The notes beneath the pieces are model-generated. The model did not search any database. It was not told the DNA's origin and saw nothing but the letters and a program-made list of their open reading frames with translations. A stretch of 64,000 bases of DNA from a virus. Lineage: Duplodnaviria > Caudoviricetes. Of this stretch, positions 18,157-54,870 are shown in pieces. Both the position numbers and the translations under genes were made by a program. The stretch covers positions 96,001 through 160,000 of IMG/VR virus record IMGVR_UViG_3300044712_000786; one strand, written 5' to 3'. Numbering within the stretch: the first letter of the stretch is position 1; each line of letters opens with the position of its first letter.

Positions 18157-18184
18157 ATTTTAATAAATATTTTTGAAAATGCAA
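18157..18184 (-). promoter_or_regulatory. sigma70-like promoter of rIIA
   Basis: TTGCAT-N16-TAAAAT, 6 nt before the ATG. Confidence 0.7.
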
Positions 18185-22727: not shown

Positions 22728-23372
22728 TCATATCTTAGTACAATAATACATAGAAGAGGGGCCATCAACGACTTCTTCTATTTTAAAGCGGGGGGATAAT
22801 ATATCCCTATATTCTTCCTGAGAAATCCAATCAAAGGTAGTTAGATGAGGCTCTAGCCCCGAAGATGTTTGTATATGATGAATCTTATCACCATCCATAA
22901 AAGTGACTTCCATATACCTTCTATTATTTAAGCTATAGCGCCTCGCCTTAGGTTCAGAAGAAGGTTTGCGCCCGAAGGTATTAAACACAAACATACCTCC
23001 AGCAACTAATTTATTAGCTAAGTCTTTGGCATCTATCTCTTTAAGCCAATAATTCACACCTTGACGGCACACGATTAAATCAAATGGCGCGTCTATCTCC
23101 TTAAGCCACCGTTGGATAGAACAATTATGGTATCCAAACTTATGAGAAACATGAGCTTTAAATTCATCGGGCACCATTAAAGGCTCTTGGTCTACTAAAG
23201 CAACAAAATTAGCCCCATGACTCAAAGCATATTGAGATAATAACCCATTTCCACAGCATAAGTCAGCAACGTCCTTACCCTTAATATCCGTCTTAGCGAA
23301 GAATGCCTCGGGGCCTTTCTTTAAGAAACGTGCATAAAGAGCTTGATAAGTTTGATAAGCGGGATATCTCAT
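22728..23372 (-). CDS. Class I SAM-dependent methyltransferase
   Basis: VADLCCGNG motif I, LVDQ motif II, FDLIVCRQ, GGMFVFNT. Confidence 0.85.
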   Translation of the reverse strand: MRYPAYQTYQALYARFLKKGPEAFFAKTDIKGKDVADLCCGNGLLSQYALSHGANFVALVDQEPLMVPDEFKAHVSHKFGYHNCSIQRWLKEIDAPFDLIVCRQGVNYWLKEIDAKDLANKLVAGGMFVFNTFGRKPSSEPKARRYSLNNRRYMEVTFMDGDKIHHIQTSSGLEPHLTTFDWISQEEYRDILSPRFKIEEVVDGPSSMYYCTKI

Positions 23373-24463
23373 ATTCTATTCCCATTTTTATCTAACAAGA
23401 GGAAACAGCCATGGTCTTGGATGTTAAAAGAACTAAGTATATCTCTTTGAGAATCCCTAACCGTACCTGCGATAGCATAAGGCAACGTAGGCAATTCGGG
23501 TAGCTGCCTATGGAAATGAACGATAGCTTTAACACTTTTGTTTTTCTTAAATAACCAATGCAATAAAGGCGCATTAAGAGTAGCTTTAGCGCCACCAGTG
23601 CAAACCTCACGCAAGTCATGTTTAACAGCGTATACGGGAACTAAATCTTCTAACTCTCTCTTGCCCCTTCCAGTAGTCAAGAAGGCTAGACTCTCTGTTT
23701 CATAGCGAACGGCTATAGTCCCAAATACATATCCTTCGGGAGTTGCCTTAAATTCCTCTTTATAGGTCTCTGCCAGTTTATGGAAAGTGCTCTGTTCGCT
23801 TAAATAGTCGGTTGTTCTACCCCAGACTTCCGTTTTATAGTATTGGTCTTTGACACACGTAATTACAAAATCAACTATTTCTCGATTACTCATAACGTGT
23901 TCCCCACGCTCTTTGGTAACCGCATACTTAGTAAGCAAATCTTTAGCGTCATTAGCAAAAACAGCCGTTGCTTTAGATTCCAATAAAACTCCGTAAGCAG
24001 CACTAATTAACTCTTCATGAGTAACTTCGGATAACAGTTTAAAGCCAAACAAGTGAGTCTTGGGGGCTACCTTTTTAACTTCATCGATAACTCTAGGAGC
24101 AATTGTAAAATCAATAGGTATAACATCCCCCACTTTATAATTATGAGAGGGAAACTTCCCTCTAATAGCATTAAGAGGAATTAAATTGGCTACAGCAGCC
24201 CCAAGAATTACAGCGTCCATTTTGGGAGCTAGCTCTTTTACTTTGTCAATATAGTCATGAATACCACAATGCTTAATTAATGTCATTCTATGGGGATGAA
24301 AAGGAGCTTTAGCTTCAGGACTAGAAAGATACGTAACCTTACAATCCTCTAGACAGAATCTATCCGCTAAATCCGCCATTAACCCACCCTTAAACTTATT
24401 AGTGATGATTTTTACTGCATCTAAATGAGCGTGAACAGGACCACCAGTAATTAAGACTTTCAC
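23369..24463 (-). CDS. CoaB-like (phosphopantothenate-cysteine ligase fold) domain fused to a class II aldolase/adducin domain
   Basis: N-terminal ITGGP..HLDAVKIITNKFKG, GAAVA, GFKL; C-terminal GTIAVR..FLTTGRGK, AIVHFH, DHGCF. Confidence 0.7.
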   Translation of the reverse strand: MKVLITGGPVHAHLDAVKIITNKFKGGLMADLADRFCLEDCKVTYLSSPEAKAPFHPHRMTLIKHCGIHDYIDKVKELAPKMDAVILGAAVANLIPLNAIRGKFPSHNYKVGDVIPIDFTIAPRVIDEVKKVAPKTHLFGFKLLSEVTHEELISAAYGVLLESKATAVFANDAKDLLTKYAVTKERGEHVMSNREIVDFVITCVKDQYYKTEVWGRTTDYLSEQSTFHKLAETYKEEFKATPEGYVFGTIAVRYETESLAFLTTGRGKRELEDLVPVYAVKHDLREVCTGGAKATLNAPLLHWLFKKNKSVKAIVHFHRQLPELPTLPYAIAGTVRDSQRDILSSFNIQDHGCFLLLDKNGNRI

Positions 24464-24876
24464 TTAGTTCCTTTCTCGGAGAACTTACTAAAATAGCGCA
24501 AGGGTCTCCAAAGATGATTATTAACCCAAAAGCCCCACTTACGATAGGGACGACTGCAAAGAAGAATAGTCCAAGCCCCACCTTCGGGAATTTCTAAACG
24601 GTGCTGTTTATCTCCCCTAGCATACCATATAGAAGGAGCTTTAATATGTCTACTGCCATCGGGGGTAACATTAGTATAGCTACCTTTGAATAAGATGCTT
24701 ATAAAATCAAAAGGATGGTCATGAAAATGGGGACCAACGTCAGAACCAATCCAGTGATGCAATCTTATTGAATAACCAAACAAGATAAGCGACCAACGGC
24801 GAAGATAAACTTTATCGCCCTGAGTCAGGGTCTCGCGCCTGAATTGAAAAGCTTTAAATTGTTGATAATTACTCAT
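24460..24876 (-). CDS. Cupin-fold metalloprotein (dioxygenase-like)
   Basis: RLHHW...HFHDHPFDFISILFKGSY and HRLE motifs; start moved to MSNY because the longer ORF overlaps the tRNA-like RNA. Confidence 0.75.
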   Translation of the reverse strand: MSNYQQFKAFQFRRETLTQGDKVYLRRWSLILFGYSIRLHHWIGSDVGPHFHDHPFDFISILFKGSYTNVTPDGSRHIKAPSIWYARGDKQHRLEIPEGGAWTILLCSRPYRKWGFWVNNHLWRPLRYFSKFSEKGTK

Positions 24877-24893
24877 GTTCAAACTTAAAGGAC

Positions 24894-25077
24894 TCAGCGA
24901 GGGAGGACTCGAACCTCCAACCTCGTTCATGTAATGAACCCCTATTTACTGACTATCCTCGATTTTCTTACTAGTAGTGAAGGGTTGCAACCCCGCACTA
25001 TGTTCAAATTATCTACTTTTGTCAGCTTTTTCGGGAGGGTTACTAGCCCTGCGCTCTGCCAATTGAGCTACTCGCCG
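24894..25077 (-). ncRNA. tRNA-like RNA (Pro-type acceptor, AGT anticodon loop) with an approximately 110-nt structured insertion
   Basis: CGGCGAG/CTCGCTG acceptor, GCTC-AATTGGCA-GAGC D arm, AGGG-CTAGTAA-CCCT, GGAGG-TTCGAGT-CCTCC T arm; no encoded CCA. Confidence 0.7.
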
Positions 25078-25607
25078 ATATTTAAATTCTAAAATAAATT
25101 TTTCAAAAAGCAACCTAAAAATTCTCGTATGCAATTAGGTAATTCCCAAGAGTGACTCTGACTCCCTCAATCGAAAATTCAAAATTTAAATGTTCGGGAA
25201 AAGCACTCATTAATTCAACGTACTCATCTAAACTAGATGAATCTTCCCAACGGGCAAAGCGGCGAATAGAATTCATCTACCAAGAAGTCTTGCCACGAAT
25301 CTTATCTATAGCACCCAGCACCATCAAAGGAAAAAAGACGATGAACATTCCCACTTTAATACAAACCCACATAAAAAACTTGATAAGAGTATTCATATTT
25401 TGTCTACCTCTTTCAGTATCTCTAACGCTCGTTCATCCCCGCCGCTTCCTTCGCAAATCGCTTTAGCTAACCCATCGGGGATAGGATAGCCATGTTTTTC
25501 GAGAATACTTAACATATCTAAAGCTACTGTATGTCTACAAATAGAAGGAAAAGGAAAGTTAAGCATATTCCTTACCTCTTGAACCAAGTCATTCTTTATA
25601 TCTTCCA

Positions 25608-36836: not shown

Positions 36837-36913
36837 TGGAGACGCAAGTTGGATTTGCACCAACGAATAGCAAGGTTGCAGCTTGCTGGTTTAGACTACT
36901 CACCCATTGCGTC
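36837..36913 (-). tRNA. tRNA-Cys(GCA)
   Basis: GACGCAA/TTGCGTC, U73, CCA; GCAAG-CTGCAAC-CTTGC; T loop TGCAAAT. Confidence 0.85.
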
Positions 36914-36920
36914 CTGAAAA

Positions 36921-37919
36921 TTACTTCAAAACAAGAAGTTGCGTGCCAGCAACCAAATTTCGGTTGAGGCTAGTAGACTGGATAAAGACATGCCACTTGC
37001 CATGACTAGCAGGGTCTACTTGGATTTCGTAATCGGGCAGACCGAGCATATCTCGCGCATTAACGCCAGAATATACCTTCGCCGTTACTTTATCCTGAAT
37101 ACATACCTGTTTGTAAGCTTGAACCTTCTCGGGCTTAGTAATTTGGTAGTAAGCCGAACCTTTGACGTAAGGCTTTCCAGTCCAACTTTCTACGAAGCTC
37201 TTGATATCCTTCTTCTTACTAACAGGGAAAATCTCATATTGGTGAGTCTTTAGCTCATCCAAATTCCGTTTGACACTAGTTGTCGATAGGCTGCTAGCGT
37301 CAAGATTAAAAAGATTCTTTGTACTGCGAACTCCAGTGCTACGAGCCCTCATAAAGGAAGTCGTAACTGTAGTCATAACGTCACCGATATCGTTCATACC
37401 CTTGGCGGTAGTGTCCCAAGTCATTACATTACCGGCGGGGAACCCACAAGCTTTAGCTTGCTTAACTCCATATTCATTGGGGACCATTACGGACACGGTC
37501 CAATTATCCTTGAGTTGAGAAATCGCTTTCTTTAATTGAGGTTCCTTGTTCCGACTAGCATTCTCTTCGCCATCGGTAATAGCAATCAAAAGAAACGCAT
37601 GGTCTCCATAGAGTTGAGGCGTCTGCTCAAGGTCAGAGATTGCTTGCATCGTCCCATCGATAAGCTTGGTATTGCCATTAGTATAATAATGGTCTTTAAT
37701 CCTAGGGAGCCTCAATACATCCATATCGTATACTAGCGGCTCTACGCTGCTATTAAACAAATAAATTGAAACCCGTGTTTCTTGGTCAGTTTCTTTAGAG
37801 CTTTTGGCTAATTGAGCTACGTGAGTGTCAATGACTTTAATGGTTTCGTCCTTGATGCTGCTCATCGAACCGCTCGCATCTACAACCAAAGCTACGTGAT
37901 TGATAAGATTTTGAATCAT
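36921..37919 (-). CDS. von Willebrand factor A domain protein
   Basis: VALVVDASGSM MIDAS motif, T.LID, ITDGEENAS. Confidence 0.85.
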   Translation of the reverse strand: MIQNLINHVALVVDASGSMSSIKDETIKVIDTHVAQLAKSSKETDQETRVSIYLFNSSVEPLVYDMDVLRLPRIKDHYYTNGNTKLIDGTMQAISDLEQTPQLYGDHAFLLIAITDGEENASRNKEPQLKKAISQLKDNWTVSVMVPNEYGVKQAKACGFPAGNVMTWDTTAKGMNDIGDVMTTVTTSFMRARSTGVRSTKNLFNLDASSLSTTSVKRNLDELKTHQYEIFPVSKKKDIKSFVESWTGKPYVKGSAYYQITKPEKVQAYKQVCIQDKVTAKVYSGVNARDMLGLPDYEIQVDPASHGKWHVFIQSTSLNRNLVAGTQLLVLK

Positions 37920-37925
37920 ATCCCA

Positions 37926-37953
37926 ATTCTAAAAAGAATTTTTGAAAAGTCAA
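37926..37953 (-). promoter_or_regulatory. sigma70-like promoter of the vWA gene
   Basis: TTGACT-N16-TAGAAT, 6 nt before the ATG. Confidence 0.75.
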
Positions 37954-38402
37954 CGTTAAAAACCAAAGGGCTGACTAAGAAGCGCCCCGCTATTGGAGAC
38001 CCGATATCGTTGAAGTCTGCCTTCCCTTTCCCATACCCCTGACAATTGAGGGGCAACCCCAGTTAAATAATCCCTTCCCTCTAAAACAAATGTATCTAAA
38101 TCGGCTTGCCCCGTAGGAAGCGAGTGCAAACGATTCATATAATTACCTTGGGAGCCGCTGATATACATACTCTTTATTACACCTTACAGGGGCATGTATC
38201 CTTTTCGGGATTAACCCCCTTACCACAAACTGGACAAACCCACCCCTTTTTAACGGCAAATGGATAAACGGGATGTATATCTTGAGCCAAGCCCCCAACT
38301 GTCGTATTATAACAGCTATAACACAAATTTTTTCCCTCAAAACAATACAAGGCCGAAGTGAGATTCCCGCAACGAGAACAGGCAAACTTAAATATACTAT
38401 CG

Positions 38403-38756
38403 TTATCTTTCATACAACTTAGCTAGACCATTTTTCAACAGTTCATCATTCAAGTTAGTAGAAGAACCATTAGAATCATAGTAAACTTCAGCTAGATAGC
38501 GCCCAAAGGCGTCTGCTTTGAAAGTTTGGATAACAACCAACTTATTCAAAACCGTATTAACTACGTAAGACTTACCTAGGAGGGCTCTTTGCTTATCCTC
38601 GGCGTTAGAACTCGTTAACTCCCAAGTATTTATGCGATTCAGCCGCAGACGAAGAAGCATCTTTATCTTAAATCCTACATCTACTTCCGCGTCTACCGTA
38701 TCGCCGTCTACTACATTAGTTATTAAAGCCTTGTATAAATATGCTGGTTGAACCAT
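38403..38756 (-). CDS. Thermonuclease (staphylococcal nuclease family)
   Basis: VVDGDTVD, RLNRINTWE, DAFGRYLA, LNDELLKNGLA. Confidence 0.85.
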   Translation of the reverse strand: MVQPAYLYKALITNVVDGDTVDAEVDVGFKIKMLLRLRLNRINTWELTSSNAEDKQRALLGKSYVVNTVLNKLVVIQTFKADAFGRYLAEVYYDSNGSSTNLNDELLKNGLAKLYER

Positions 38757-39431
38757 GCATAAAATTACACGCGCAATGGGGCGAAACCCGTAAAATCTAA
38801 CCCATTATGCAATAACTCGTCCCAATAACCTTCAGAGTCTTTATAAATGATTCTCTTAGGGCCGAATCTATTAATGACTTCTTTAACTACCCATTCAGCA
38901 TCATTAGTAACGCTTATGTTTCCTAAATCCAAATCCTCAATATAAACGATATTAGCGGTATCGTTGACTACCTTGAAATCAGCATGGGGTTTCATTGGGA
39001 TAAATTTTCGCTCCGCTATGTTCCAAAATGTAAGCGGTATAACAGGGCACGCAAAGCTCTTTGTAATTCCAGATGGTATGAAAATTGTCGCCCGTTATGT
39101 TGTTTTCTACCCCACAATCAATCTTATACGAAGATACTTCATCCCTAGTATGGCAAACGTCGCATTCGAGAATAATGTGCTTCATATCGTCTCAATATTA
39201 TTAGGAATAGGTCCAACTTCTCGACCAACTTGCTCGTTCCAATCTTTGTTTATTTCGTCTAATTTGTCCGCTAAAGCCCTGAGTAACCACGCAACAAAAC
39301 AACCGCCTTGATTAGGCGGGGGCCAATAATAAAAATATCCATCTACATCTTTTAGAAAATCGCCTATATAAGCCGTTTCAACGAATACTTGATAACAGCT
39401 ATCGGAATCTTTCTCAAGCCTTAACATAAAA

Positions 39432-39506
39432 TGGTAGCAGCAGAGGTACTCGAAACCTCAGGGAAAACAGCCTTATGAAAGCCGCCCGTCACCTAGACTT
39501 GCTGCC
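39432..39506 (-). tRNA. tRNA-Met/Ile2(CAT), canonical TTC T loop
   Basis: GGCAGCA/TGCTGCT-A-CCA; CGGCT-TTCATAA-GGCTG; GAGGT-TTCGAGT-ACCTC. Confidence 0.8.
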
Positions 39507-40056
39507 AGTTTTTTCAGAGAGTTGTCTACTTGCTGCATCGCCCAATCTAGCTTAGACTCGTCCATTTTTTCAACAACGTCCTCTATACTAAGTTCTAAAT
39601 TCTTGTGAGAGTACATTCGTTTAAATACCATCTGATGCCCCTCGGGGAGTTGGCGCAACCCATTTAAAATAGTATCTCTCGCAAAACGCTGCAAAGATTC
39701 GTTCATTACTCCAAGTCTACCAAATCTTTTTCCTCTGTCAATCCCTGATTTATCAGTTTTACAAAGGATTCCCTTAATTTCCTTCGGACCTTTTGATTAG
39801 CCTTTTTTTTATTAAATTTTTTCTGAAGTCTCGCTTCCCTTCTCATCGTTTCCTCCTTTAATTTGGACTTCAATGGGATTATCCAAGAAAATAGTTTGCT
39901 TCTTCTTTTTACTTAGCCCTGAACGACGTTCATAAGCGACAATAAAAAGCCTGCCTTCATTATCTATTTTGAAGACAGGCTTAACTCTATCCTTGGCGAT
40001 AAGTTTCTTAAGATGATTCTTCACGCTTATATTATAGCGTGGAGCAGATATTTTGT

Positions 40057-40506
40057 CTACGGAACTATCCAAACAGCATTAATTTTATCAAGCTTCTTAT
40101 TATAGCTATAGACAATGTTCGTCCAAGGGCCTACTTCATAAGACCCTACGGTAAAAGCATTTGAGCCAACGGGACGGCACCAGAATTTATATGTCCCGCT
40201 GGGAACGCTTTTGGCTAGCAAATTGACAAAAGTAAAATTAGTAATTGACTGCCCGTTAACCCTTAAGAACTGAAATGTCCCAGTGGTATTAGGCAGAGCA
40301 GGGTCTTCATCCAGAATTTGACCCGCTACCAAGTTTGTGGTAGTAACCGCTACAACATTAGTGCTCGAAACCCCAATATCATACCCGAGAACGGTATAAC
40401 TAGAATCTACATACTTCTCCCAACTTAATAGGGATTTAGAAGTAGCTGTTTGCGCAAACGCACTAAAACCAGCCAAAAGACAGACGGTAAATAGTAACTT
40501 TTTCAT
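40057..40506 (-). CDS. Putative secreted/surface beta-rich protein
   Basis: Signal-peptide-like MKKLLFTVCLLAGFSAFA; Thr/Asn/Ser-rich. Confidence 0.6.
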   Translation of the reverse strand: MKKLLFTVCLLAGFSAFAQTATSKSLLSWEKYVDSSYTVLGYDIGVSSTNVVAVTTTNLVAGQILDEDPALPNTTGTFQFLRVNGQSITNFTFVNLLAKSVPSGTYKFWCRPVGSNAFTVGSYEVGPWTNIVYSYNKKLDKINAVWIVP

Positions 40507-40525
40507 AAACTTTATTACACTAAAA

Positions 40526-40599
40526 TGGTCCGGTAGTCTGGATTTGCACCAGAACAGTTCCCTTCACAGGGGAAGATGCTACATTACATCACGTACCGG
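40526..40599 (-). tRNA. tRNA-His(GTG)
   Basis: TTCCC-CTGTGAA-GGGAA; T loop TGCAAAT; A73-CCA. Confidence 0.8.
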
Positions 40600-40900
40600 A
40601 TAAATCGGGAAGGAGTTATCAATTCCCCGCTGACTCAGTCGGCTTTTCAAGGGCCTTATATAGATGATAAGTCTAAGTTTCTGTATGCTAAAGCTTTATG
40701 AGAGCTTTACCCGAAAGTCTAAAATCTCTTCTGGAAAATATAATTCATCCGCCCTAAGAGCATACTTAGTATTAGAGCCATGAGGACGAACGGTCCAAAG
40801 TTCCGTTTTATATTCTTCAAAATACTCTTTTTCTAATACGTCAACGGTCTGACCGTAGTTTAGTCCAAAAACAGGTTCATTAATAATTGCTATCATAAAT

Positions 40901-40984
40901 TGGTAGCCCCGAAGAGACTTGCACTCTTAAAACCATCGGGTTTAAGCCGAAATGCTGTTCTATTCGCAATAAGGTCACGGGGCC
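40901..40984 (-). tRNA. tRNA-Leu(TAA), short variable loop
   Basis: GGCCCCG/CGGGGCT-A-CCA; CT-TAA-AC loop; T loop TGCAAGT. Confidence 0.8.
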
Positions 40985-40991
40985 ATTAAAT

Positions 40992-41069
40992 TGGTACTGG
41001 CGGCAGGAGTTGCACCTGCGAGCATCTAATTTTGAGTCAGATAGGTATTCTAGTTCCCGTCACGCCAGC
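40992..41069 (-). tRNA. tRNA-Leu(CAA), short variable loop
   Basis: GCTGGCG/CGCCAGT-A-CCA; CT-CAA-AA loop; T loop TGCAACT. Confidence 0.8.
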
Positions 41070-41660
41070 ATTAAATTTAGGAAAAGCCATCTTAAAGAAG
41101 AACTTGCTCGTTTCCTCTTTAACATATCTTACTCCTACTTTGTGTTCATCTGTAATAACTACATATGAAGGAACAATATCTATAAAAGAACCGCTATTAG
41201 CGTAAATTACATCGCCATCTTTATAGACTTCAGGATGATGATTATGTCCCAAAAATATAGCTTTGTAATGTTCCCGCTCTGCAAAATCCAAGGCTCTCGG
41301 AATCATCCGTCCCTTTGAAAACAAAGAGGAAAACTTATGTCCATGAGCCGCATAACACGCATCGCCATCTATAAACCACGAGTATGAATCTAAAAAATTA
41401 AGAGAAGTTATCTTATCTAAGCCGAAAATTCTGCTATCATGGTTGCCCTTCGTAACCACAAGTCGGCCCATTCTTTCCATTCTCTCTAATCGGCGCAAAA
41501 TCTGTTCATCATCTTTTCTCAACTTTCGAGCATAACGAAAATCCAATACATCCCCATTAACTATAAAAAGCTCCGCTTCTTGGTCTAGCACTTTGTTAAT
41601 CGCTCGGCGGTTGCAATAGGGATTTCCCAAGTGCAAATCCGATAGAACTACATTCTTCAT
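41037..41660 (-). CDS. Calcineurin-like metallophosphoesterase (LpxH-like)
   Basis: SDLHLG, NGDVLD, GNHD, HGH and GHNH motifs; 3' end runs into tRNA-Leu(CAA). Confidence 0.85.
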   Translation of the reverse strand: MKNVVLSDLHLGNPYCNRRAINKVLDQEAELFIVNGDVLDFRYARKLRKDDEQILRRLERMERMGRLVVTKGNHDSRIFGLDKITSLNFLDSYSWFIDGDACYAAHGHKFSSLFSKGRMIPRALDFAEREHYKAIFLGHNHHPEVYKDGDVIYANSGSFIDIVPSYVVITDEHKVGVRYVKEETSKFFFKMAFPKFNAGVTGTRIPI

Positions 41661-41705
41661 GTGTATAGACTAGCGACTTTTTTTAAAAAAACAAGAAAAA
41701 AAAAT

Positions 41706-41791
41706 TGGCGGTTCGCAGATGTTCTGCCCATCATTCCTTGCGGAACCATCCGCTTTCCAAGCGGTGATAGTCCTTGACTACTTTACGAACC
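41706..41791 (-). tRNA. tRNA-Ser(GGA)
   Basis: GGTTCGT/GCGAACC-G-CCA; TT-GGA-AA; long variable arm; T loop GGCAGAA. Confidence 0.8.
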
Positions 41792-41792
41792 A

Positions 41793-41878
41793 TGGCGGAT
41801 AAGTATGATACCGCCTCATATCCCCGTGGGGACGCATAGTTTTCGAGACTAGCCTTAGTCTTACTAAGTTACTTATCC
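41793..41878 (-). tRNA. tRNA-Ser(CGA)
   Basis: GGATAAG/CTTATCC-G-CCA; CT-CGA-AA; variable arm; T loop GGCGGTA. Confidence 0.8.
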
Positions 41879-41882
41879 AAAG

Positions 41883-41974
41883 TGGCAGAGGGGTAGGGAA
41901 ATGCTCCCTAGTCCGAATTTACGGCTCCGTGCTGGTTTCAAAGCAGCCCTTAGCTCTTGCTAAGTTACCCCTCT
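41883..41974 (-). tRNA. tRNA-Ser(TGA)
   Basis: AGAGGGG/CCCCTCT-G-CCA; TT-TGA-AA; variable arm; T loop AGCATTT. Confidence 0.8.
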
Positions 41975-42558
41975 ATAATCCTAAAACTCTTCTTTCCTCT
42001 AAATTAAGTTTCTTGAGGGCCTTAAGTCTGGTTCTTTCTCTCAGACCTGATTCGTTTTCCTCTTTAATGCGTGCGGCATCAGCTTTATCATGCTTAGCTA
42101 TCCATTTTCGAGTCTCATTAGTAAGCTCTTTTTCGAGATTATTTCTTCTCAGAATAGTTCTCATATCGCAAGCTGCGCGAGTAGCTTTGTCAGCTTCTTT
42201 TCTGAGAATGCTCTCTTCGCTTTCTCCGTAATCACATCTACAAGGCATATAGTTTCTTTCTAAATAGCGGTTGCGTTGTCATCCATTACAATTTCGTGCA
42301 TGAGTTGACGAATCACAGAAGGATTGACAGCACCCTTATAGTACTTCAGAATATTACCTTCTAACTCTTTCACGGATAGGACTTTCCAGTTAGAAAAGTT
42401 CCCCCGCAATAACTTTAGAAGTTCTTCTTTCGTCGGTTGAGTGCAAGCTTGTTGCATAAAATGGCGGTTAGTTGAAGTCCTGCCCTCCATGCCCTTTCGA
42501 GGCACAATTACGTTAGCACCGTATTCTAAGAACTTTCTTAGTTAACTAACCATTAAAT

Positions 42559-42650
42559 TGGTCCCTCAGGGGAGAATCGCGCTCCTTCGTCTAACTACCC
42601 CACTTATTTTGAGACATTAGATTTACAGGCTAACGTGGGGAACCCTCGGG
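42559..42650 (-). tRNA. Atypical D-armless tRNA-Tyr(GTA)-like RNA
   Basis: CCCGAGG/CTGAGGG-A-CCA; TTAGC-CTGTAAA-TCTAA; CCCCAC in place of the D arm is complementary to GTGGGG in the variable region. Confidence 0.6.
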
Positions 42651-42948
42651 ATTAAATCATTTTTAAATCTTTGTGTTTGTCTACGAATCTCTGGCAAACG
42701 CCCTTCATATAGAATACTGCGCGAGCTTGGGGTGTTCCCATGGTATCTATAATTTCATGATTATAAGCTTGGTCTTTAGCTCTCTTAAGGTCATCTATAA
42801 GCATTTCGAGTTCCACTTGGGGACACTCAATTAGCTCATTCATCCTTCTCTGCCATTCAGCCTGCATTTTCTCATGATTTAAACAGGCTTCCTCGGTTTG
42901 GAATGTCCTACCGTCGCTTGATTGATAAACAAGAAACTTAATCATAAA

Positions 42949-43317
42949 CTATTGTGCGCTAAAATCTTTTATTACTGGAACGGTCCAAGATAGTGGTTCT
43001 TCTACTCCAGTAGTAGAGTTAGTAACCAAGAGCGTATAGAACTTCGTTTCAGATAAGTTTAATCTAATCTGGTTACTCTTTGTAGTCGCCACTAAAGGCC
43101 AAGCTGAATAAGACGTTGAATTAGGGACGAATTCCCTAATATTAAACGAAATAGCGTTTGACGGAGTGGGATACTGCCACTTGAACAAACAGGGCTTAAG
43201 GGTGCCTTGAGCAAAAACACTAAAGGCAATCAAGCTTACGACTAGCATCATTTTTTTCATAAATTGGTACCCTCGGATGGACTTACACCACCAACGTCTC
43301 GCTAATCGGGCGAGCAT
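42949..43317 (-). CDS. Putative secreted protein
   Basis: Likely start MKKMMLVVSLIAFSVFA (signal-like); beta-rich. Confidence 0.5.
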   Translation of the reverse strand: MLARLARRWWCKSIRGYQFMKKMMLVVSLIAFSVFAQGTLKPCLFKWQYPTPSNAISFNIREFVPNSTSYSAWPLVATTKSNQIRLNLSETKFYTLLVTNSTTGVEEPLSWTVPVIKDFSAQ

Positions 43318-43339
43318 TCTATTTTTGAATTACGAGGGC
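43265..43339 (-). tRNA. tRNA-Ile(GAT), C33/U37
   Basis: GCCCTCG/CGAGGGT-A-CCA; CTCGC-CCGATTA-GCGAG; T loop TGTAAGT. Confidence 0.75.
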
Positions 43340-43345
43340 TTAAAT

Positions 43346-43420
43346 TGGTCCCGTCGAGTGGAGTCGCACCACTTTTTCTGGTTCTTCAGACCAGCACACA
43401 AACTCTTGTGTTACAACGGG
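43346..43420 (-). tRNA. tRNA-Phe(GAA)
   Basis: CCCGTTG/CGACGGG-A-CCA; CTGGT-CTGAAGA-ACCAG; T loop TGCGACT. Confidence 0.85.
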
Positions 43421-43519
43421 TTGTCCTTAAGAACATGGTCAGCGCACATCAGCCTGTCCCCATTTACGCTGTGCGGCGAACGCGAGGATTAGGTAACTAC
43501 TTACATGCTCTTAAGAAAT

Positions 43520-43594
43520 TGGTAGCCCTATCGGAACTTGCATCCGATTTCTCTGGTTGAAAGCCAGAACTCCTACTACATAGAGGATAGGGCC
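43520..43594 (-). tRNA. tRNA-Glu(TTC)
   Basis: GGCCCTA/TAGGGCT-A-CCA; TCTGG-CTTTCAA-CCAGA; T loop TGCAAGT. Confidence 0.85.
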
Positions 43595-43690
43595 ATAATG
43601 TCCTTAATTGCTAGTATAGGTCGCTCTCCTTACTAACTATCAGCCAGCGAACTTGTTTGCACTGAGTTCTTATGTAATTAAGGACTAAAT

Positions 43691-43765
43691 TGGTAGCCCT
43701 ATGCGGTTACGCTCCGCACCCTCTACCTTGAAAGGGTAGCGACCTGTCTACTAGTCGATAGGGCC
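43691..43765 (-). tRNA. tRNA-Glu(TTC), second copy
   Basis: GGCCCTA/TAGGGCT-A-CCA; CTACC-CTTTCAA-GGTAG; T loop AGCGTAA. Confidence 0.85.
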
Positions 43766-44021
43766 ATTAAATTATCATGGAACAAATGAAGGAGATTCTC
43801 CTTCAGCTAAAATAATGTTGCTAGGAAAAACTGGTTCTTCTGGCGTCTTAACTATTTTCAACATAATAGGTTCGCCAATATTCGGGCATTTAGCCCAATG
43901 CGTCCATTCATCTTGAATTCTAGTTAGTTTCTTAAATTCCAAATTAGTATGGTCTCCGCCGCATCTTGCACAAGTACGCACGGTAACTACCATATTATCC
44001 GCTTCTTCTATTTTCATAAAT

Positions 44022-44100
44022 TGGTGCAAGCGGTGACAGTTGCAGTCACAGGAATATTCTGGTTAAGAGCCAGTTGCCCCTCTACTGTAGCTTCGCTTGC
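44022..44100 (-). tRNA. tRNA-Lys(CTT)
   Basis: GCAAGCG/CGCTTGC-A-CCA; CT-CTT-AA; T loop TGCAACT. Confidence 0.85.
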
Positions 44101-44377
44101 GAAATTGTTTAGCAGCCTTTGCCGCCCCTTCTACCGCCCTTTTTGGGCATTTCTTTCTTAGCCATATCTTGATAATTTTGATATACTACTTTTGTTAATC
44201 CGTCATTGATATTAGTTACAGAACGTTGAACTAATTCTAAAAAATTCCTAGCATCCGTTTCTTCTAAAAATCGCACCCCAAATCCCTTCCATACGCTATA
44301 ATATGAGTAAGAGCTTTTTTTGTATTGTTGAGGGACATATAGAACACCCTTTTTAACAATTCTCAACTTCATACTCT

Positions 44378-44405
44378 ATCTTAGCAAAATTTTGCCAGAA
44401 GTCAA
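44378..44405 (-). promoter_or_regulatory. sigma70-like promoter
   Basis: TTGACT-N16-TAAGAT, 5 nt before the ATG at 44372. Confidence 0.75.
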
Positions 44406-44637
44406 CTACAAAGCTTTTCCGCAAATCAAACATTCGCACCAACCATCGGGGCCAGTATGATAATAGGTCTTGGGATGTCCACACAAATTCTGTTGTTTTT
44501 CAAGCTCTTTATTAAGAAGCCGCTTATTTCTTTCGAAGTCCTCTTCTAGTTTCCAAAGCGCTCGTTTATACCTAGAATAAGGGGAAGATTCTAATACTTG
44601 TTGCTGTTTAATGTATTCTTCGGACGTTAGCATAAAT

Positions 44638-44713
44638 TGGCTGCTCAACTAGGATTTGCACCCAGAATCTTTCGGGTCAGAACCGAAAATGTTACTAATT
44701 ACACTATTGAGCA
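44638..44713 (-). tRNA. tRNA-Gln(CTG)
   Basis: TGCTCAA/TTGAGCA-G-CCA; TTCGG-TTCTGAC-CCGAA; T loop TGCAAAT. Confidence 0.85.
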
Positions 44714-44902
44714 ATGTTAGTTAAAAGAGAAACCGTACAACCCTCAGAAACATAATGGACTTGATTCGTCTCCGTATCTTTAAATATCCAAGAGTCGCCA
44801 GTAGCCTGAGGGACATGGTAGACTATCGCTTTAGGGCAGAGAGTAAAACATATGCCATGAAAGTTTACACAAACGATATCTCCTTCTTTAATATGCATAA
44901 AT

Positions 44903-44962
44903 TGGAGCCCAACGCCTGCTTTGCACAGGTCAACTCACCTATACCTTATTACATCGCAGAGC
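44903..44962 (-). ncRNA. Anticodon-armless tRNA-like RNA
   Basis: Weak acceptor GCTCTGC/GTTGGGC-T-CCA, D-like loop, CCTG-TGCAAAG-CAGG T arm, no anticodon stem-loop. Confidence 0.45.
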
Positions 44963-45065
44963 AAGCACCCCGCTAACTGCCCCGTTCAAGGGGCTTATCG
45001 GCTTTTTAGTAGATGTGTTTTTTCTGTCCCCAGCTAAGGGGTAGTTAAACTAGTTGGGCTTAAAA

Positions 45066-45110
45066 TTGGGGCCTCGTCAGATATTGCAATCTGCACGCTA
45101 CGCTACGAGG
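45066..45110 (-). ncRNA. tRNA minihelix-like RNA (acceptor plus T arm only)
   Basis: CCTCGT/ACGAGG, C73-CCA; CAGA-TTGCAATA-TCTG; 11-nt linker. Confidence 0.55.
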
Positions 45111-46192
45111 GTAGACTAGGTTCTTACGCGAGGCTTTTTATTAATCTGTTTTCTTGCGCAACAATAAAACTGTAGTCGCCAATCTTTGTATTCTTCTATA
45201 AAACTCCTGAGCATCGAATCATAAGCATCAGACAGAGACGCACGGTATAGGCTTGAACAATCGCAGTTAATACCTGCCCACCTAACGCAAATCTTATAAC
45301 CATCTTTATTATGCCATACTGTCAAAGTGCGAAAATCGCGAGTTTCAGTAGTATGTTTCTGGGTAGTGGCATCTATGCCAGACCATTCAATATAGCTGTC
45401 TTTTAGTTTCTTTAGTAGAGATTCGTATGTCATAAAATGGTGTCCCCATTCGGGTTTGCGCCGAAAGTCTTTAGATTGAGAATCTAAGATGTTACTAATT
45501 ACACTATAGGGACTTTTAGCCGCCCATTGCAGTCGTTCGAGCGGCGATAATCTGTTCAAAAGTAGCAGAGGGTATTCGCATGTTATTAACATAAACGTCC
45601 CCATCTGCTTCAAAAGCCCAATTATACCCCGCAATTCTTTGTCTAACTCGGGGGTTATTCTTAATTGCGCTTATAATAGTATTAAGCTGAGTCAAAGCAT
45701 TATAGGTTCCATCAACTGTTTCAGAGCCTACAGCCGCCTCTACTGTTTTAGCTACAGTATCAGCTAGTAAGAAGCTTTTTTCTGCGGTCCAATCCACAGT
45801 TTTAATGAGGGAGCCAGTATAATCAGGCATAGGAAACGGTCCTTTTATCTGCCAACTATACTCTTCTGCAAGAGTAAGAATGAACCTACATGCCGCCTGT
45901 TTCTGAGATTCTGTTGAATAAGAACTAAAATCAATTAATGCTTTCATAATTTACTTTACACAATTCGTTATAGAGTTAATCTTTGCGCCTGTAAAAAACA
46001 TCATTCCATTAGTCCGAAAGTCTATGATAATAATGTTCTTAGAATAACCCGCTCCCCAAGAACAAGACGCCCAATTAGTCATATTAGTAGACATAAGTGA
46101 ATAACTATTAGTCACTTCTACATCAACTATAGTAAGGTTCTGAGCCGCCAGAGAACAAGCAAAAAACATCGCCAAGATGAATCTCATATTTC

Positions 46193-46220
46193 ATCTTAGC
46201 AAGATTTTAGGGGAAGTCAA
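46193..46220 (-). promoter_or_regulatory. sigma70-like promoter
   Basis: TTGACT-N16-TAAGAT, 5 nt before the ATG at 46187. Confidence 0.75.
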
Positions 46221-46230
46221 CTATCTAAAG

Positions 46231-46308
46231 TGGCAGTTGCGGTTGGATTTGCACCAACGGTTTTACTGCTTCAAAGGCAGTTGGATTGGACTACTCTCCC
46301 ACGCAACA
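46231..46308 (-). tRNA. tRNA-Gln(TTG)
   Basis: ACTGC-CTTTGAA-GCAGT; T loop TGCAAAT; G73-CCA. Confidence 0.85.
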
Positions 46309-46389
46309 ATTTTGCCAGTGTTTGATAGACGCTTCCTTTGAAGACTTACCGCTAGGTAATAATCATACCCTTAACTGGCTAATATAAAA

Positions 46390-46464
46390 TGGCGGTCTAT
46401 ACGGGACTCGCACCCGTTATTCCTGCGTGACAGGCAAGTATGATAACTCATTCAACAATAGACC
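46390..46464 (-). tRNA. tRNA-Asp(GTC)
   Basis: GGTCTAT/ATAGACC-G-CCA; CT-GTC-AC; T loop TGCGAGT. Confidence 0.85.
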
Positions 46465-46578
46465 AAACAAATACTAGCTGGGACCCCAACACGTTATAGC
46501 CGTAAGGGTATTTCGCTCAGGTTACATGTTACATTACCTGCTTCAATTACACATGTATGCGCCAGCTAGAAAAAACAA

Positions 46579-54173: not shown

Positions 54174-54545
54174 ATGAGGCATAGCCCTATAAAATTACTT
54201 TGCGCGTTTTGTAAAGAATCTTTTACTCGACCACTGTCTAAGTTAAAAAATAGTAAATCAAAAATATACTTTTGCTCTCGTCATTGTAAAGACGAGGCTC
54301 AAAAAATAAAGAATAAATTTACCGATATCCACCCATCGCATTACGGAACAGGCTCTTGCAAAGAAACATATAGACGCATTGCTCTAGAAAACCTTCCTCA
54401 TAAATGCAATCGTTGTGGTTACAATAAATTACTAGGCGTATTAGCAGTACATCATAAAGATAGAGACAAATCAAATAATCTAGTTAGTAACTTAGAAATT
54501 CTTTGCCATAACTGTCATGCCGAAGAACATATTCTAAACGATTAA
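54174..54545 (+). CDS. HNH homing endonuclease inserted in the tRNA cluster
   Basis: CAFC...FCSRHC zinc finger; CNRCG...VHHKDRDKSNNLVSNLEILCHNCHAEEH. Confidence 0.85.
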   Translation: MRHSPIKLLCAFCKESFTRPLSKLKNSKSKIYFCSRHCKDEAQKIKNKFTDIHPSHYGTGSCKETYRRIALENLPHKCNRCGYNKLLGVLAVHHKDRDKSNNLVSNLEILCHNCHAEEHILND

Positions 54546-54548
54546 AAT

Positions 54549-54641
54549 TGGTACTCCCCGTAGGTAACGCTCCTACACACGGCACTCATCTAGTGCGACT
54601 TGGGCTTATAAGGCCCACGATTCTCTTTGAATTAGGGGAGC
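54549..54641 (-). tRNA. tRNA-Ile(TAT) with a long variable arm
   Basis: GCTCCCC/GGGGAGT-A-CCA; TGGGC-CTTATAA-GCCCA; GCAC-TAGATGA-GTGC; T loop AGCGTTA. Confidence 0.75.
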
Positions 54642-54716
54642 AAAAAATTACCATCAGGCCATGGTTTACATTACCATCTTTAAGACTTACGGTTTGTATC
54701 GTCCTGATGGACAAAT

Positions 54717-54790
54717 TGGAGCACTATATCGGTACTGCCCCGACTTATCCAGATTGGCAATCTGATGCATCACTTTTATGCTAATAGTGC
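54717..54790 (-). tRNA. tRNA-Gly(GCC)
   Basis: GCACTAT/ATAGTGC-T-CCA; TT-GCC-AA; T loop GGCAGTA. Confidence 0.85.
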
Positions 54791-54796
54791 TGAAAA

Positions 54797-54870
54797 TGGT
54801 CCGATATGTCAGAATCGCACTGACCCCACAAGTTCCCAAAACTTGCATGCTACTTCAACACCTATATCGG
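54797..54870 (-). tRNA. tRNA-Pro(TGG)
   Basis: CCGATAT/ATATCGG-A-CCA; CAAGT-TTTGGGA-ACTTG; T loop TGCGATT. Confidence 0.85.

What the first reader, a model, noticed from the sequence alone, without database searches (positions are those of the whole stretch)
24894..25077. Pro-type tRNA body with an AGT anticodon loop and an approximately 110-nt structured insert, heading a biosynthetic operon
Seen: the acceptor CGGCGAG...CTCGCTG-A has the C1-G72/A73 pattern of Pro tRNAs. A hairpin with an AGT loop follows the D arm, then an insert with CTGAC/GTCAG, TAGTG/CACTA, GGGG/CCCT and GTTCAT/ATGAAC stems, then the T arm. It lies just after a promoter and directly upstream of the cupin-CoaB-methyltransferase operon. 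Known: A34 anticodons other than Arg are rare in bacteria. Inference: an unusual intron, a mini-tmRNA-like RNA, or a tRNA-shaped leader or substrate of the operon.
Basis: partly seen in the sequence, partly recalled or inferred. Interest (0 to 1): 0.62.

Follow-up and report, generated by a model that had tools for sequence, protein, structure and literature searches.

The report
Phage valine-tRNA look-alike beside cupin
This soil-phage gene is a real tRNA-shaped RNA, but it belongs to a widespread family of valine-tRNA look-alikes with extra folded arms that sit just before one small metal-enzyme gene in many large phages; I found no paper describing the family, and it probably works unspliced with that enzyme instead of decoding.

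Summary
On the minus strand, window 24894-25077 encodes a 184-nt RNA with perfect acceptor, D and T arms, an AGU hairpin and about 110 extra nt.

The reading needs changing. The conserved anticodon arm is the UAC (Val) hairpin next to the variable loop. The AGU hairpin is part of the insert.

In this lineage the anticodon stem opens between positions 27 and 28 into a linker-free four-way junction. It carries an anticodon-like hairpin, an expandable arm (6-nt loop in relatives, 86 nt more here) and the Val hairpin. Two relatives keep this fold: 10 of 30 pairs covary.

The RNA belongs to a family of tRNA-Val-like genes with C1-G72, U71, A73, A35 and C36. U33 is not conserved, and inserts lie at varying sites. 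A family element lies upstream of the same small cupin gene in 48 of 79 viral loci and in cultured Caulobacter, Brevundimonas and Paraglaciecola phages. The CoaB-aldolase and methyltransferase genes are not part of that module.

The phage has its own tRNA-Val(UAC) and none of three splicing or RNA-ligase families searched. Best reading: an unspliced, non-decoding, probably valine-accepting tRNA mimic that works with the cupin. A new kind of intron is not excluded. There are no expression data.

This scan has found the same family before on other DNA.

The parts
25086..25113 (-). Promoter TTGCTT-16-TAGAAT. The predicted transcript start is 2 nt before C1 of the RNA.
   Evidence: It belongs to a family TTG[AC]NTTTTNAAAAAT..TA[GA]AAT with 14 copies on the coding strand and 0 on the other strand. 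In most copies the -10 box is followed by 6 nt and then ATG. The same spacing here ends in AT|C. The exact-pattern count in the window is 3 against 0.47 expected.
24894..25077 (-). The whole tRNA-Val-like RNA: 184 nt, with no encoded CCA.
   Evidence: Model R1 scores it at 100.4 bits.
25053..25077 (-). Acceptor 5' strand (25071-25077), U8 A9, and the D arm GCUC-AAUUGGCA-GAGC (25053-25068) with G18 G19.
   Evidence: Read directly. The pairs are invariant or covary in the relatives.
25036..25051 (-). C27, which pairs with G at 24924, then hairpin 1: AGGG-CUAGUAA-CCCU. This is the 'AGU' anticodon-like arm.
   Evidence: Three of its four pairs covary among ours, L002 and L075. The loops read CUAGUAA, CUAAUAA and UUCCUAA.
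24940..25035 (-). Arm 2 of the junction. Its base helix is CCCGA/UAGGG, with one mismatch. It carries an 86-nt extension containing CUGACA/UGUCAG and the hairpin UAGUG-C-GGGGU-UGCA-ACCCU-U-CACUA.
   Evidence: The base helix covaries in 3 of 5 pairs. The relatives have only a UGAAUU loop here. The extension has no copy elsewhere in the genome or in the fetched loci.
24924..24939 (-). Hairpin 3: GUUC-AUUACAU-GAAC, then G43. This is the Val anticodon arm, with UAC at 24931-24933.
   Evidence: A35 and C36 are conserved across the family. One pair covaries, G-C to U-A. Deleting positions 28-138 gives a canonical tRNA-Val.
24894..24923 (-). Variable loop AGGUU (with A15:U48), T arm GGAGG-UUCGAGU-CCUCC, acceptor 3' strand CUCGCUG, and A73.
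   Evidence: The 15:48 pair changes to G15:C48 in L002 (read).
24460..24876 (-). Gene for a 138-aa cupin with an HFHDH metal motif. This is the conserved partner gene.
   Evidence: PHROG 4786, E = 2e-28. AlphaFold model pLDDT 90.8 with generic cupin matches. A family element lies upstream in 48 of 79 loci.

Best explanation
The locus encodes a stable tRNA-shaped RNA that is a valine-tRNA mimic, not a decoding tRNA.

How it is probably made and folded:
- It is transcribed from its own phage promoter. The transcript starts about 2 nt before C1 and runs on into the cupin mRNA.
- Ordinary tRNA-processing enzymes probably release it.
- It folds into a normal L-shape, because all canonical elbow and core contacts are present.
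- Its anticodon limb is branched. C27:G43 closes a linker-free four-way junction with three arms: (i) an anticodon-like hairpin whose 'anticodon' is free to vary, (ii) an expandable arm, lengthened by 86 nt in this phage, and (iii) the Val anticodon hairpin (UAC), whose strand runs on into G43.

What it probably does:
- It keeps the bases that valyl-tRNA synthetase reads (A35, C36, A73, G45). After CCA addition it is therefore probably charged with valine.
- The branched limb should keep it off the ribosome.
- It most likely acts together with the adjacent cupin, as that enzyme's substrate, carrier or cofactor.

Shown: the anatomy, the covariation, family membership and the gene linkage.
Inferred: processing, valylation, exclusion from decoding, and any role for the cupin.
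For: Fold kept in relatives. Ours, L002:2080-2182 and L075:1185-1287 keep the four-way junction. 98.9% of cells pair, against 36-52% when the partners are slid, and 10 of 30 pairs change on both sides. These three score 100-123 bits with model R1; every other match scores 55 bits or less.

Family features. In 31 distinct C1/A73 elements (the set was selected on C1 and A73):
- U71 in 26 of 31 and C74 in 28 of 31.
- A35 in 24 of 31 and C36 in 23 of 31, but U33 in only 14 of 31.
- Uninterrupted members have G33 or A33, a pyrimidine at position 37, or loops of 5-8 nt. That fits recognition by ValRS but not decoding.
- Val identity elements A35, C36, A73, G20 and G45 are from PMC9976931.

Linkage to the cupin. 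A family element lies upstream on the same strand in 48 of 79 cupin loci, against 7 of 79 downstream. A strict 3' signature gives 35 against 1. It is also present, unannotated, in Paraglaciecola GD virus 1, Caulobacter phage CcrColossus and Brevundimonas phage Bajun, and in 2 of 3 MAG contigs. Where a gene separates the RNA from the cupin in L003 and L002, it is a homing-endonuclease type (HNH, T5orf172).

Not needed for decoding here. The phage has its own tRNA-Val(UAC) at 53148-53221. All 17 tRNAs of its array have G55-type T loops, no GG in the D loop and an encoded CCA. This element has UUCGAGU, GG and no CCA.

No sign of splicing. No RtcB, splicing endonuclease or Rnl2-type ligase was found in the complete 203-kb genome. 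No intron or ribozyme family matched in Rfam.

Insert sites differ between lineages: the D loop, the 5' side of the anticodon loop, between positions 27 and 28, and the variable region (by inspection).
Against: - There are no RNA data: no RNA run holds this DNA.
- Deleting positions 28-138 leaves a flawless tRNA-Val that looks able to decode (U33, A37). An intron would look the same.
- Introns also keep conserved structure, so covariation alone does not prove that the arms stay in the mature RNA.
- The host could supply an RNA ligase.
- This copy lacks CCA and has C20 instead of G20, so charging is unproven.
- More distant cupin homologues in Mycobacterium and Gordonia phages have no room for such an RNA upstream. 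The cupin can therefore exist without it.
- The cupin fold gives no clue to a substrate.
- Only three sequences support the junction subtype.
Confidence: 0.55

Rival explanations
1. It is a tRNA-Val(UAC) gene interrupted by a new kind of intron, roughly positions 28-138. The intron is removed by an unknown ribozyme or host activity, giving a normal decoding tRNA.
For: Exact deletion gives a canonical 73-nt tRNA-Val that ARAGORN finds at its default threshold. Other family members lack the insert, or carry inserts at other sites, as mobile introns do. 'Enigmatic' introns have been reported in Lak phage tRNAs (PMC6784885).
Against: No Rfam intron or ribozyme family matches. At about 110 nt the insert is shorter than the smallest group I tRNA introns I know of (about 200 nt, from my own knowledge). 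The phage genome has no RtcB, splicing endonuclease or Rnl2-type ligase. The phage already has a tRNA-Val(UAC). Uninterrupted family members already have anticodon loops unfit for decoding. An equally exact deletion of 43-153 gives a tRNA-Thr, so a clean deletion product is not diagnostic.
Confidence: 0.2
2. It is a decoy or sponge. The RNA displays anticodon arms (Val UAC, plus an arm of the type that reads A-starting codons, ending in U36-A37-A38) to soak up a host factor. That factor could be an anticodon nuclease, a modification enzyme or ValRS. The cupin link would then be indirect.
For: It carries two anticodon-like 7-nt loops on one tRNA body. The same window holds another small RNA displaying a UAC anticodon arm, CUCGC-CUUACAA-GCGAG, at 48962-49044 (sequence seen; noted earlier by the scan).
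Against: I know of no nuclease that targets tRNA-Val, and I made no search for one. This reading does not explain why the RNA keeps its acceptor end, A73 and the cupin neighbour across so many phages.
Confidence: 0.12
3. It is a cis-acting leader: a tRNA-shaped 5' end that only sets the 5' end, stability or translation of the cupin mRNA through RNase P or RNase Z cleavage.
For: The transcript start is about 2 nt before C1 and the cupin ATG is 17 nt after A73, with no clear ribosome-binding site. This phage's promoters of the same family otherwise start directly at an ATG.
Against: In other phages the element lies 200-900 nt away from the cupin, inside tRNA arrays, in tandem pairs, or with an encoded CCA. 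A simple processing signal would not need A35, C36 and A73 conserved.
Confidence: 0.08
4. One reading: a tRNA with an AGU (Thr) anticodon, or a proline-type tRNA, carrying a giant variable region; or else a decayed pseudogene.
For: Deleting positions 43-153 gives a canonical tRNA-Thr.
Against: The loop of hairpin 1 reads AAU and CCU in the relatives, so no anticodon is kept there. Family conservation lies on the NAC hairpin. Ten compensatory pair changes argue against decay.
Confidence: 0.05

Closest known systems
Valine-accepting tRNA-like structures of plant and insect RNA viruses (TYMV TLS-Val; PMC9976931)
   Same: Both are viral RNAs that mimic tRNA-Val and keep A35, C36 and an A73-type discriminator. 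Both are not used for decoding. In some TLS-Val, large stem-loops inserted into the core do not prevent valylation.
   Different: A TLS sits at the 3' end of an RNA genome and builds its acceptor arm with a pseudoknot. This element is a separate gene in a DNA phage. It has a true 7-bp acceptor stem and full D and T arms, and it has a conserved protein-gene neighbour. TLS-Val conserves A35-C36-A37-C38; here position 38 is U.
'Enigmatic' introns in tRNA genes of Lak megaphages (Devoto et al. 2019, PMC6784885)
   Same: Both are over-long phage tRNA genes with conserved inserts that fit no known intron class. In one Lak case the insert itself looks tRNA-like.
   Different: That paper reports them as predicted introns in various tRNAs. 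It names neither a Val-like family nor a cupin partner. Whether the Lak cases belong to this family was not tested here.
YrlA, the tRNA-like Y RNA bound by Ro60/Rsr (Rfam RF02553)
   Same: Both are non-decoding RNAs of bacteria and phages with a tRNA-like module and a dedicated protein partner. This phage also encodes a Ro60-like protein (noted earlier by the scan).
   Different: In YrlA the two RNA ends form the Ro-binding helix, not an acceptor stem. No YrlA match was found at this locus; there was only a weak sub-threshold match in L002 (27 bits against a cut-off of 69). The partner gene here is a cupin, about 33 kb from the Ro60-like gene.
Group I introns in bacterial tRNA anticodon loops (tRNA-Leu UAA, tRNA-fMet, Azoarcus tRNA-Ile)
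   Same: Both are structured inserts in the anticodon region of a bacterial-type tRNA gene.
   Different: Group I introns are about 200 nt or longer and have a defined catalytic core (from my own knowledge). No Rfam match was found here. The insert here lies in the stem between positions 27 and 28, and it is mostly made of tRNA-like hairpins.

Membership tests
Phage tRNA-Val-like RNA linked to the cupin (no paper describing it found; defined here and in earlier notes of this scan) | A tRNA body with C1-G72, U71, A73 and a canonical elbow (G18 G19, U54 U55 C56, A58) | tested here: met
   All are present in the element.
Phage tRNA-Val-like RNA linked to the cupin (no paper describing it found; defined here and in earlier notes of this scan) | An NAC triplet (A35, C36) placed directly 5' of the 3' strand of the anticodon stem, followed by a 5-nt variable loop | tested here: met
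   The sequence reads AUUACAU-GAACG-AGGUU. A35 is found in 24 of 31 members and C36 in 23 of 31.
Phage tRNA-Val-like RNA linked to the cupin (no paper describing it found; defined here and in earlier notes of this scan) | Lies upstream, on the same strand, of the PHROG 4786 cupin gene | tested here: met
   17 nt separate A73 from the start codon. 48 of 79 loci have a family element upstream.
Decoding tRNA-Val | A continuous 5-bp anticodon stem with a 7-nt loop, at the standard distance from the elbow | tested here: not met
   111 nt are inserted between positions 27 and 28. ARAGORN at default settings and Rfam at its gathering score both miss the gene.
Decoding tRNA-Val | ValRS identity set: A35, C36, A73, G20, G45 (PMC9976931) | tested here: inconclusive
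   A35, C36, A73 and G45 are present. Position 20 is C. No CCA is encoded. Charging cannot be tested with these tools.
   Neither anticodon-like loop (AGU, UAC) has GG at positions 35-36.
tmRNA | A tRNA-Ala-like end with G3-U70, a tag reading frame and pseudoknots | tested here: not met
   ARAGORN's tmRNA search and Rfam found nothing. The G-U pair is at 2:71.
Group I or other self-splicing intron, or a small ribozyme | A match to a catalytic-core model | tested here: not met
   No Rfam family matched at E up to 10 in 24700-25300. An undescribed ribozyme cannot be excluded.
Protein-spliced (archaeal or eukaryal type) tRNA intron | A splicing endonuclease and an RNA ligase are available | tested here: not met
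   PF01974, PF01139 and PF09414 are absent from the complete phage genome. Host enzymes were not tested.

The most novel reading that the evidence does not exclude
The RNA is a dedicated valine carrier that is kept out of translation. Host ValRS charges it, its branched anticodon limb keeps it off the ribosome, and the adjacent metal-dependent cupin then acts on the aminoacyl-RNA or on a base of the RNA. That would be a phage-encoded enzyme pathway that depends on a tRNA-like RNA and is shared by many large phages.
Probability: 0.15. Interest if true: 0.9.

Novelty: new variant of a known kind. Interest (0 to 1): 0.66.

Why it matters
Large phages carry many unexplained tRNA genes, and over-long ones are usually dismissed as tRNAs with introns or simply left unannotated. 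The copies in CcrColossus, Bajun and Paraglaciecola GD virus 1 are unannotated in GenBank.

This locus shows that at least one such class is a conserved RNA family with three properties:
- It keeps the valine identity bases but not the features needed for decoding.
- It tolerates large structured arms.
- It travels with one small metal-enzyme gene.

That points to an RNA-protein system of unknown function, present in phages of very different hosts. It can be tested directly, because cultured Caulobacter, Brevundimonas and Paraglaciecola phages carry it.

The subtype found here also shows an unusual architecture: a second cloverleaf-like junction nested inside the anticodon stem. In principle either of two anticodon arms could stack in the canonical place.

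Tried and rejected
- DNA similarity to GenBank phages: no match.
- Exact-pattern scans of IMG/VR. The first pattern found nothing. A second was off by one base and gave only an unrelated interrupted tRNA, L019. The corrected 5' pattern gave 46 loci, mostly ordinary A34 tRNAs, plus L050 and the 5'-half remnant in L055. The 3' pattern gave L050 and L073.
- Metagenome pattern scan: it returned only tRNA-Thr(AGU) genes with short introns after position 37, which look eukaryotic.
- Sequencing runs: no RNA holder is listed. Laying DNA contigs gave an identical copy, plus unrelated abundant bacterial tRNAs that share only the D and T arms. No useful variants came from this.
- The 86-nt extension has no second copy in the genome or in the fetched loci.
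- An alignment of this element with two other ARAGORN 'intron' calls in the genome showed no shared insert.
- The fold of the L003 element is no better than its shuffles. It was kept only as a weak family member.
- The cupin function could not be narrowed. Pfam and NCBIfam gave nothing, the fold search gave generic cupins, and the protein-atlas search gave only a weak lead to cysteine-dioxygenase-like proteins.
- Our methyltransferase against the one between RNA and cupin in CcrColossus: only the SAM-binding motif aligns.
- An 8-bp acceptor stem (N-1:A73) was considered and rejected. Position -1 is T in 18 members and A in 11, which matches the AT-rich flanks.
- The literature searches found no description of the family.

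Full report
**What is there.** The window is part of a complete 202,704-bp phage record with terminal repeats. DNA runs from rhizosphere metagenomes hold it. Nearly all genes lie on the minus strand. On that strand, 25077 to 24894 reads as a tRNA body with a long interruption. Element positions below convert to window coordinates as 25078 minus position.

- Acceptor stem CGGCGAG/CUCGCUG: 7 bp, with G2-U71.
- U8 and A9.
- D arm GCUC-AAUUGGCA-GAGC, then G26.
- About 127 nt that a normal anticodon arm of 17 nt would occupy.
- Variable loop AGGUU.
- T arm GGAGG-UUCGAGU-CCUCC, then A73.
- No CCA is encoded.

The fold is more stable than shuffled sequence: -59.5 kcal/mol, z = -3.2. ARAGORN finds the gene only when introns are allowed. 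Rfam gives two sub-threshold tRNA fragments and no tmRNA, intron, ribozyme or Y-RNA match.

**Anatomy of the interrupted limb.** C27 pairs with the G just before the variable loop. Between them lie three helices with no linker nucleotides.

- Hairpin 1: AGGG-CUAGUAA-CCCU.
- Arm 2: closed by CCCGA/UAGGG and extended by 86 nt of further helices.
- Hairpin 3: GUUC-AUUACAU-GAAC.

Deleting positions 28-138 leaves a perfect 5-bp anticodon stem with loop AUUACAU, which is tRNA-Val(UAC). Deleting 43-153 leaves an equally perfect tRNA-Thr(AGU). ARAGORN finds both products at its default threshold, but not the full gene. A clean deletion product is therefore not diagnostic on its own.

**Close relatives.** Two contigs whose cupin is 73-75% identical to ours carry the same RNA inside short tRNA-like arrays: L002:2080-2182 and L075:1185-1287. 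Both encode ACCA at the 3' end.

| Part | Ours | L002 | L075 |
|---|---|---|---|
| Hairpin 1 stem | AGGG/CCCU | CGGA/UCCG | CGAG/CUCG |
| Hairpin 1 loop | CUAGUAA | CUAAUAA | UUCCUAA |
| Arm 2 | CCCGA/UAGGG plus 86 nt | CACAG-UGAAUU-CUGUG | CCCGA-UGAAUU-UCGGG |
| Hairpin 3 | GUUC-AUUACAU-GAAC | GUGC-UACACAU-GCAC | GUGC-AACACAU-GCAC |

On the three-way alignment with the structure I wrote down, 98.9% of cells pair, against 36-52% when the 3' partners are slid by 1-3 columns. Ten of 30 pairs change on both sides: 3 of 4 in hairpin 1, 3 of 5 in arm 2, 1 in hairpin 3, 1 in the T stem and 2 in the acceptor stem. The Levitt pair also switches, from A15:U48 here to G15:C48 in L002.

The 86-nt extension is private to this phage and has no copy elsewhere. 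L055 keeps only the 5' half, through hairpin 1, and then runs into coding DNA. It looks like a remnant.

**Which hairpin is the anticodon arm.** The 'anticodon' of hairpin 1 is AGU, AAU or CCU in the three sequences, so nothing is conserved there except Y32-U33 and U36-A37-A38. Hairpin 3 keeps N-A-C-A-U. The wider family settles the question, as follows.

**The family and its partner gene.** The ORF that starts 17 nt after A73 encodes a 138-aa protein with an invariant HFHDH motif.

- It matches PHROG 4786, annotated 'cysteine dioxygenase'.
- It has no Pfam or NCBIfam family.
- A confident model (pLDDT 90.8) matches generic metal cupins.

An alignment of 36 homologues retrieved 80 IMG/VR loci, each with 1.5 kb on either side of the gene.

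- In 48 of 79 loci a tRNA-shaped gene with C1 and A73 lies upstream on the same strand. Only 7 of 79 have one downstream.
- A strict 3' signature (T arm, five bases, then YG and AC) gives 35 upstream against 1 downstream.
- The covariance model finds further expanded copies directly upstream in loci that my first scans missed, for example L122, L124 and L153.
- Some loci are near-duplicates, so these counts overstate the number of independent lineages.

Thirty-one distinct C1/A73 elements range from 70 to 204 nt. The set was selected on C1 and A73. Beyond that it shows U71 in 26 of 31, C74 in 28 of 31, U54-U55-C56 in 30 of 31, and a recurrent T stem GGGGG/CCUUC.

Reading back from the T arm, A35 is present in 24 of 31 and C36 in 23 of 31, but U33 in only 14 of 31. 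Most of the misfits have an extra insert in the variable region, and their AAC-AU sits further upstream; this was confirmed for L125, L134 and L130, where covariation supports the fold. Uninterrupted members have G33 or A33, a pyrimidine at position 37, or loops of 5-8 nt. A35, C36 and A73 are the main determinants for ValRS (PMC9976931). U33 and a purine at 37 are the near-universal requirements for decoding (my own knowledge).

The family therefore looks selected for recognition as tRNA-Val but not for reading codons. Insert sites differ between lineages: the D loop (L079, L084), the 5' side of the anticodon loop (L091, L105, L107, L117, L118, L137, L154), between positions 27 and 28 (ours, L002, L075), and the variable region (L125 group). 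These sites were assigned by inspection.

**Cultured carriers.** The module exists in cultured phages, where it is not annotated.

- Paraglaciecola Antarctic GD virus 1: one 127-nt copy with a GAC triplet, behind a promoter and next to RNA ligase and phosphatase genes.
- Caulobacter phage CcrColossus and Brevundimonas phage Bajun: two tandem copies of 250-275 nt, then a small methyltransferase, then the cupin.
- More distant cupin homologues in Mycobacterium and Gordonia phages sit in tightly packed ORFs with no such RNA upstream.
- Among 185,579 species genomes only three MAG contigs encode the cupin. Two have the RNA directly upstream and one has it downstream.
- Where a gene separates the RNA from the cupin in L003 and L002, it encodes an HNH or T5orf172 homing-type endonuclease. 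This suggests that direct adjacency is the older state.

**What is not part of it.** The CoaB-like/class II aldolase fusion and the methyltransferase that follow the cupin here form their own conserved pair in L004-L006, with no cupin upstream. None of the 80 cupin loci has that pair within 1.5 kb downstream. 'Heading a biosynthetic operon' is therefore true of the map of this phage, but the conserved link is to the cupin alone.

**Context in this phage.**
- The promoter TTGCUU-16-UAGAAU belongs to a family of 14 promoters, all on the coding strand. In most of them the -10 box is followed by 6 nt and then ATG, which suggests leaderless mRNAs. With the same spacing, this transcript would begin 2 nt before C1.
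- The phage's tRNA array is built differently. All 17 tRNAs I checked have G55-type T loops (UGCAAAU, AGCGUUA), no GG in the D loop and an encoded CCA. This element has the canonical elbow and no CCA.
- The array includes a tRNA-Val(UAC) at 53148-53221, so this element is not needed for decoding.
- Searches of the complete genome for RtcB, tRNA-splicing endonuclease and Rnl2-type ligase found nothing, while the control genomes gave matches.

**Reading.** The best explanation is an unspliced, non-decoding tRNA-Val mimic that works with the cupin.

- I put family membership at about 0.9.
- I put 'functions unspliced' at about 0.65.
- I put valylation at about 0.4. This copy needs CCA added after transcription and has C20 where tRNA-Val has G20.
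- I put a direct functional tie to the cupin at about 0.5.

The main rival, at about 0.2, is a new kind of intron, because the deletion product here happens to be a flawless tRNA-Val with U33 and A37. Smaller rivals are a decoy or sponge for something that reads anticodon arms, and a purely cis-acting mRNA leader. The decoy idea gains a little from the fact that this window also holds a small RNA displaying a UAC arm.

**Known things.** The closest described objects are:
- The valine-accepting tRNA-like structures of plant RNA viruses: same identity logic, different architecture and genomic setting (PMC9976931).
- The 'enigmatic' introns of Lak megaphage tRNAs: the same kind of observation, with no family or partner defined (PMC6784885).
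- YrlA Y RNAs: a tRNA-like module with a protein partner, but a different topology and no match here.

I found no paper describing a tRNA-Val-like family coupled to a cupin. Earlier follow-ups of this same scan reached the same family on other genomes. I treated those notes as leads and re-derived the linkage, the identity pattern and the unspliced reading from my own searches. New here are the nested four-way-junction subtype with its covariation, the separation of the cupin from the CoaB-methyltransferase pair, the promoter family, and the contrast with the phage's own tRNA set.

**Limits.**
- There are no expression data.
- Only three sequences support the junction subtype.
- Insert sites across the family were assigned by eye.
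- Locus counts include near-duplicates.
- E-values from model R1 are rough.

Noticed in passing
Genome-wide; in the window for example 18157-18184 and 25086-25113 (minus strand): A promoter family TTG[AC]NTTTTNAAAAAT..TA[GA]AAT has 14 copies, all on the coding strand. In most copies the -10 box is followed by 6 nt and then ATG, so these genes are probably expressed as leaderless mRNAs.
   Followed up: partly
G000:C1:85222-85409 (minus strand, outside the window): A second over-long tRNA-shaped gene of 188 nt: acceptor GCGCGAU/AUCGCGC, with the D arm apparently split by an insert of about 110 nt, right next to a tRNA-Leu(UAA). Its insert shows no similarity to the one studied here.
   Followed up: partly
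window 46578-46731 (minus strand): With introns allowed, ARAGORN calls a 154-nt 'tRNA-Phe(gaa) with a 60-nt intron'. It has a weak D arm and lies inside the tRNA array.
   Followed up: no
window 36837-54870 (minus strand): All 17 array tRNAs I checked have T loops of the UGCAAAU or AGCGUUA type, no GG in the D loop and an encoded CCA. This confirms the 'rewired elbow' noted earlier by the scan.
   Followed up: partly
L002:1998-2269 and L075:1104-1453: Tandem arrays of odd tRNA-like genes lie in the closest relatives. One has an 8-nt anticodon loop (GCAA). One has a 7-bp anticodon stem and a poor T stem. One is a plain family member with UAC. All encode CCA.
   Followed up: partly
L003:2447-3004 and L002:2293-2925 (minus strand): Homing-type endonuclease genes (HNH; T5orf172/GIY-YIG-like) are inserted between the tRNA-like gene and the cupin.
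   Followed up: partly
L073:300-640 (361-kb phage contig): A cluster of unusual tRNA-shaped genes. One has two T-arm-like elements between one pair of acceptor strands. Another has an insert of about 130 nt between the D and T arms.
   Followed up: no
L055:1248-1292: A 5' half of a gene close to ours (CGGCGGG..CAGGA-CUAAUAA-UCCUCCC) is followed at once by a ribosome-binding site and an ORF. No 3' half lies within 13 kb. It is probably a deletion remnant.
   Followed up: partly
L019:385-430: A tRNA 5' half ending in the loop CUAAUAA is followed by AT-rich DNA and an ORF rich in Cys pairs. This may be a tRNA gene split by an intron that carries an endonuclease gene.
   Followed up: no
window 22728-24463 (minus strand); L004-L006: The CoaB-like/class II aldolase fusion and a SAM methyltransferase form a conserved gene pair in other large phages, independent of the cupin. 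Their function is unknown.
   Followed up: partly
IMG/VR loci L020-L065: Dozens of viral contigs, including giant-virus bins, carry otherwise canonical tRNAs with A34 anticodons (AGU, AAU, AUU). A34 is therefore not rare among viral tRNA genes.
   Followed up: no
L154:1-885 (Paraglaciecola Antarctic GD virus 1): In this cultured phage the tRNA-like gene and the cupin lie just after genes annotated as RNA ligase and phosphatase.
   Followed up: no
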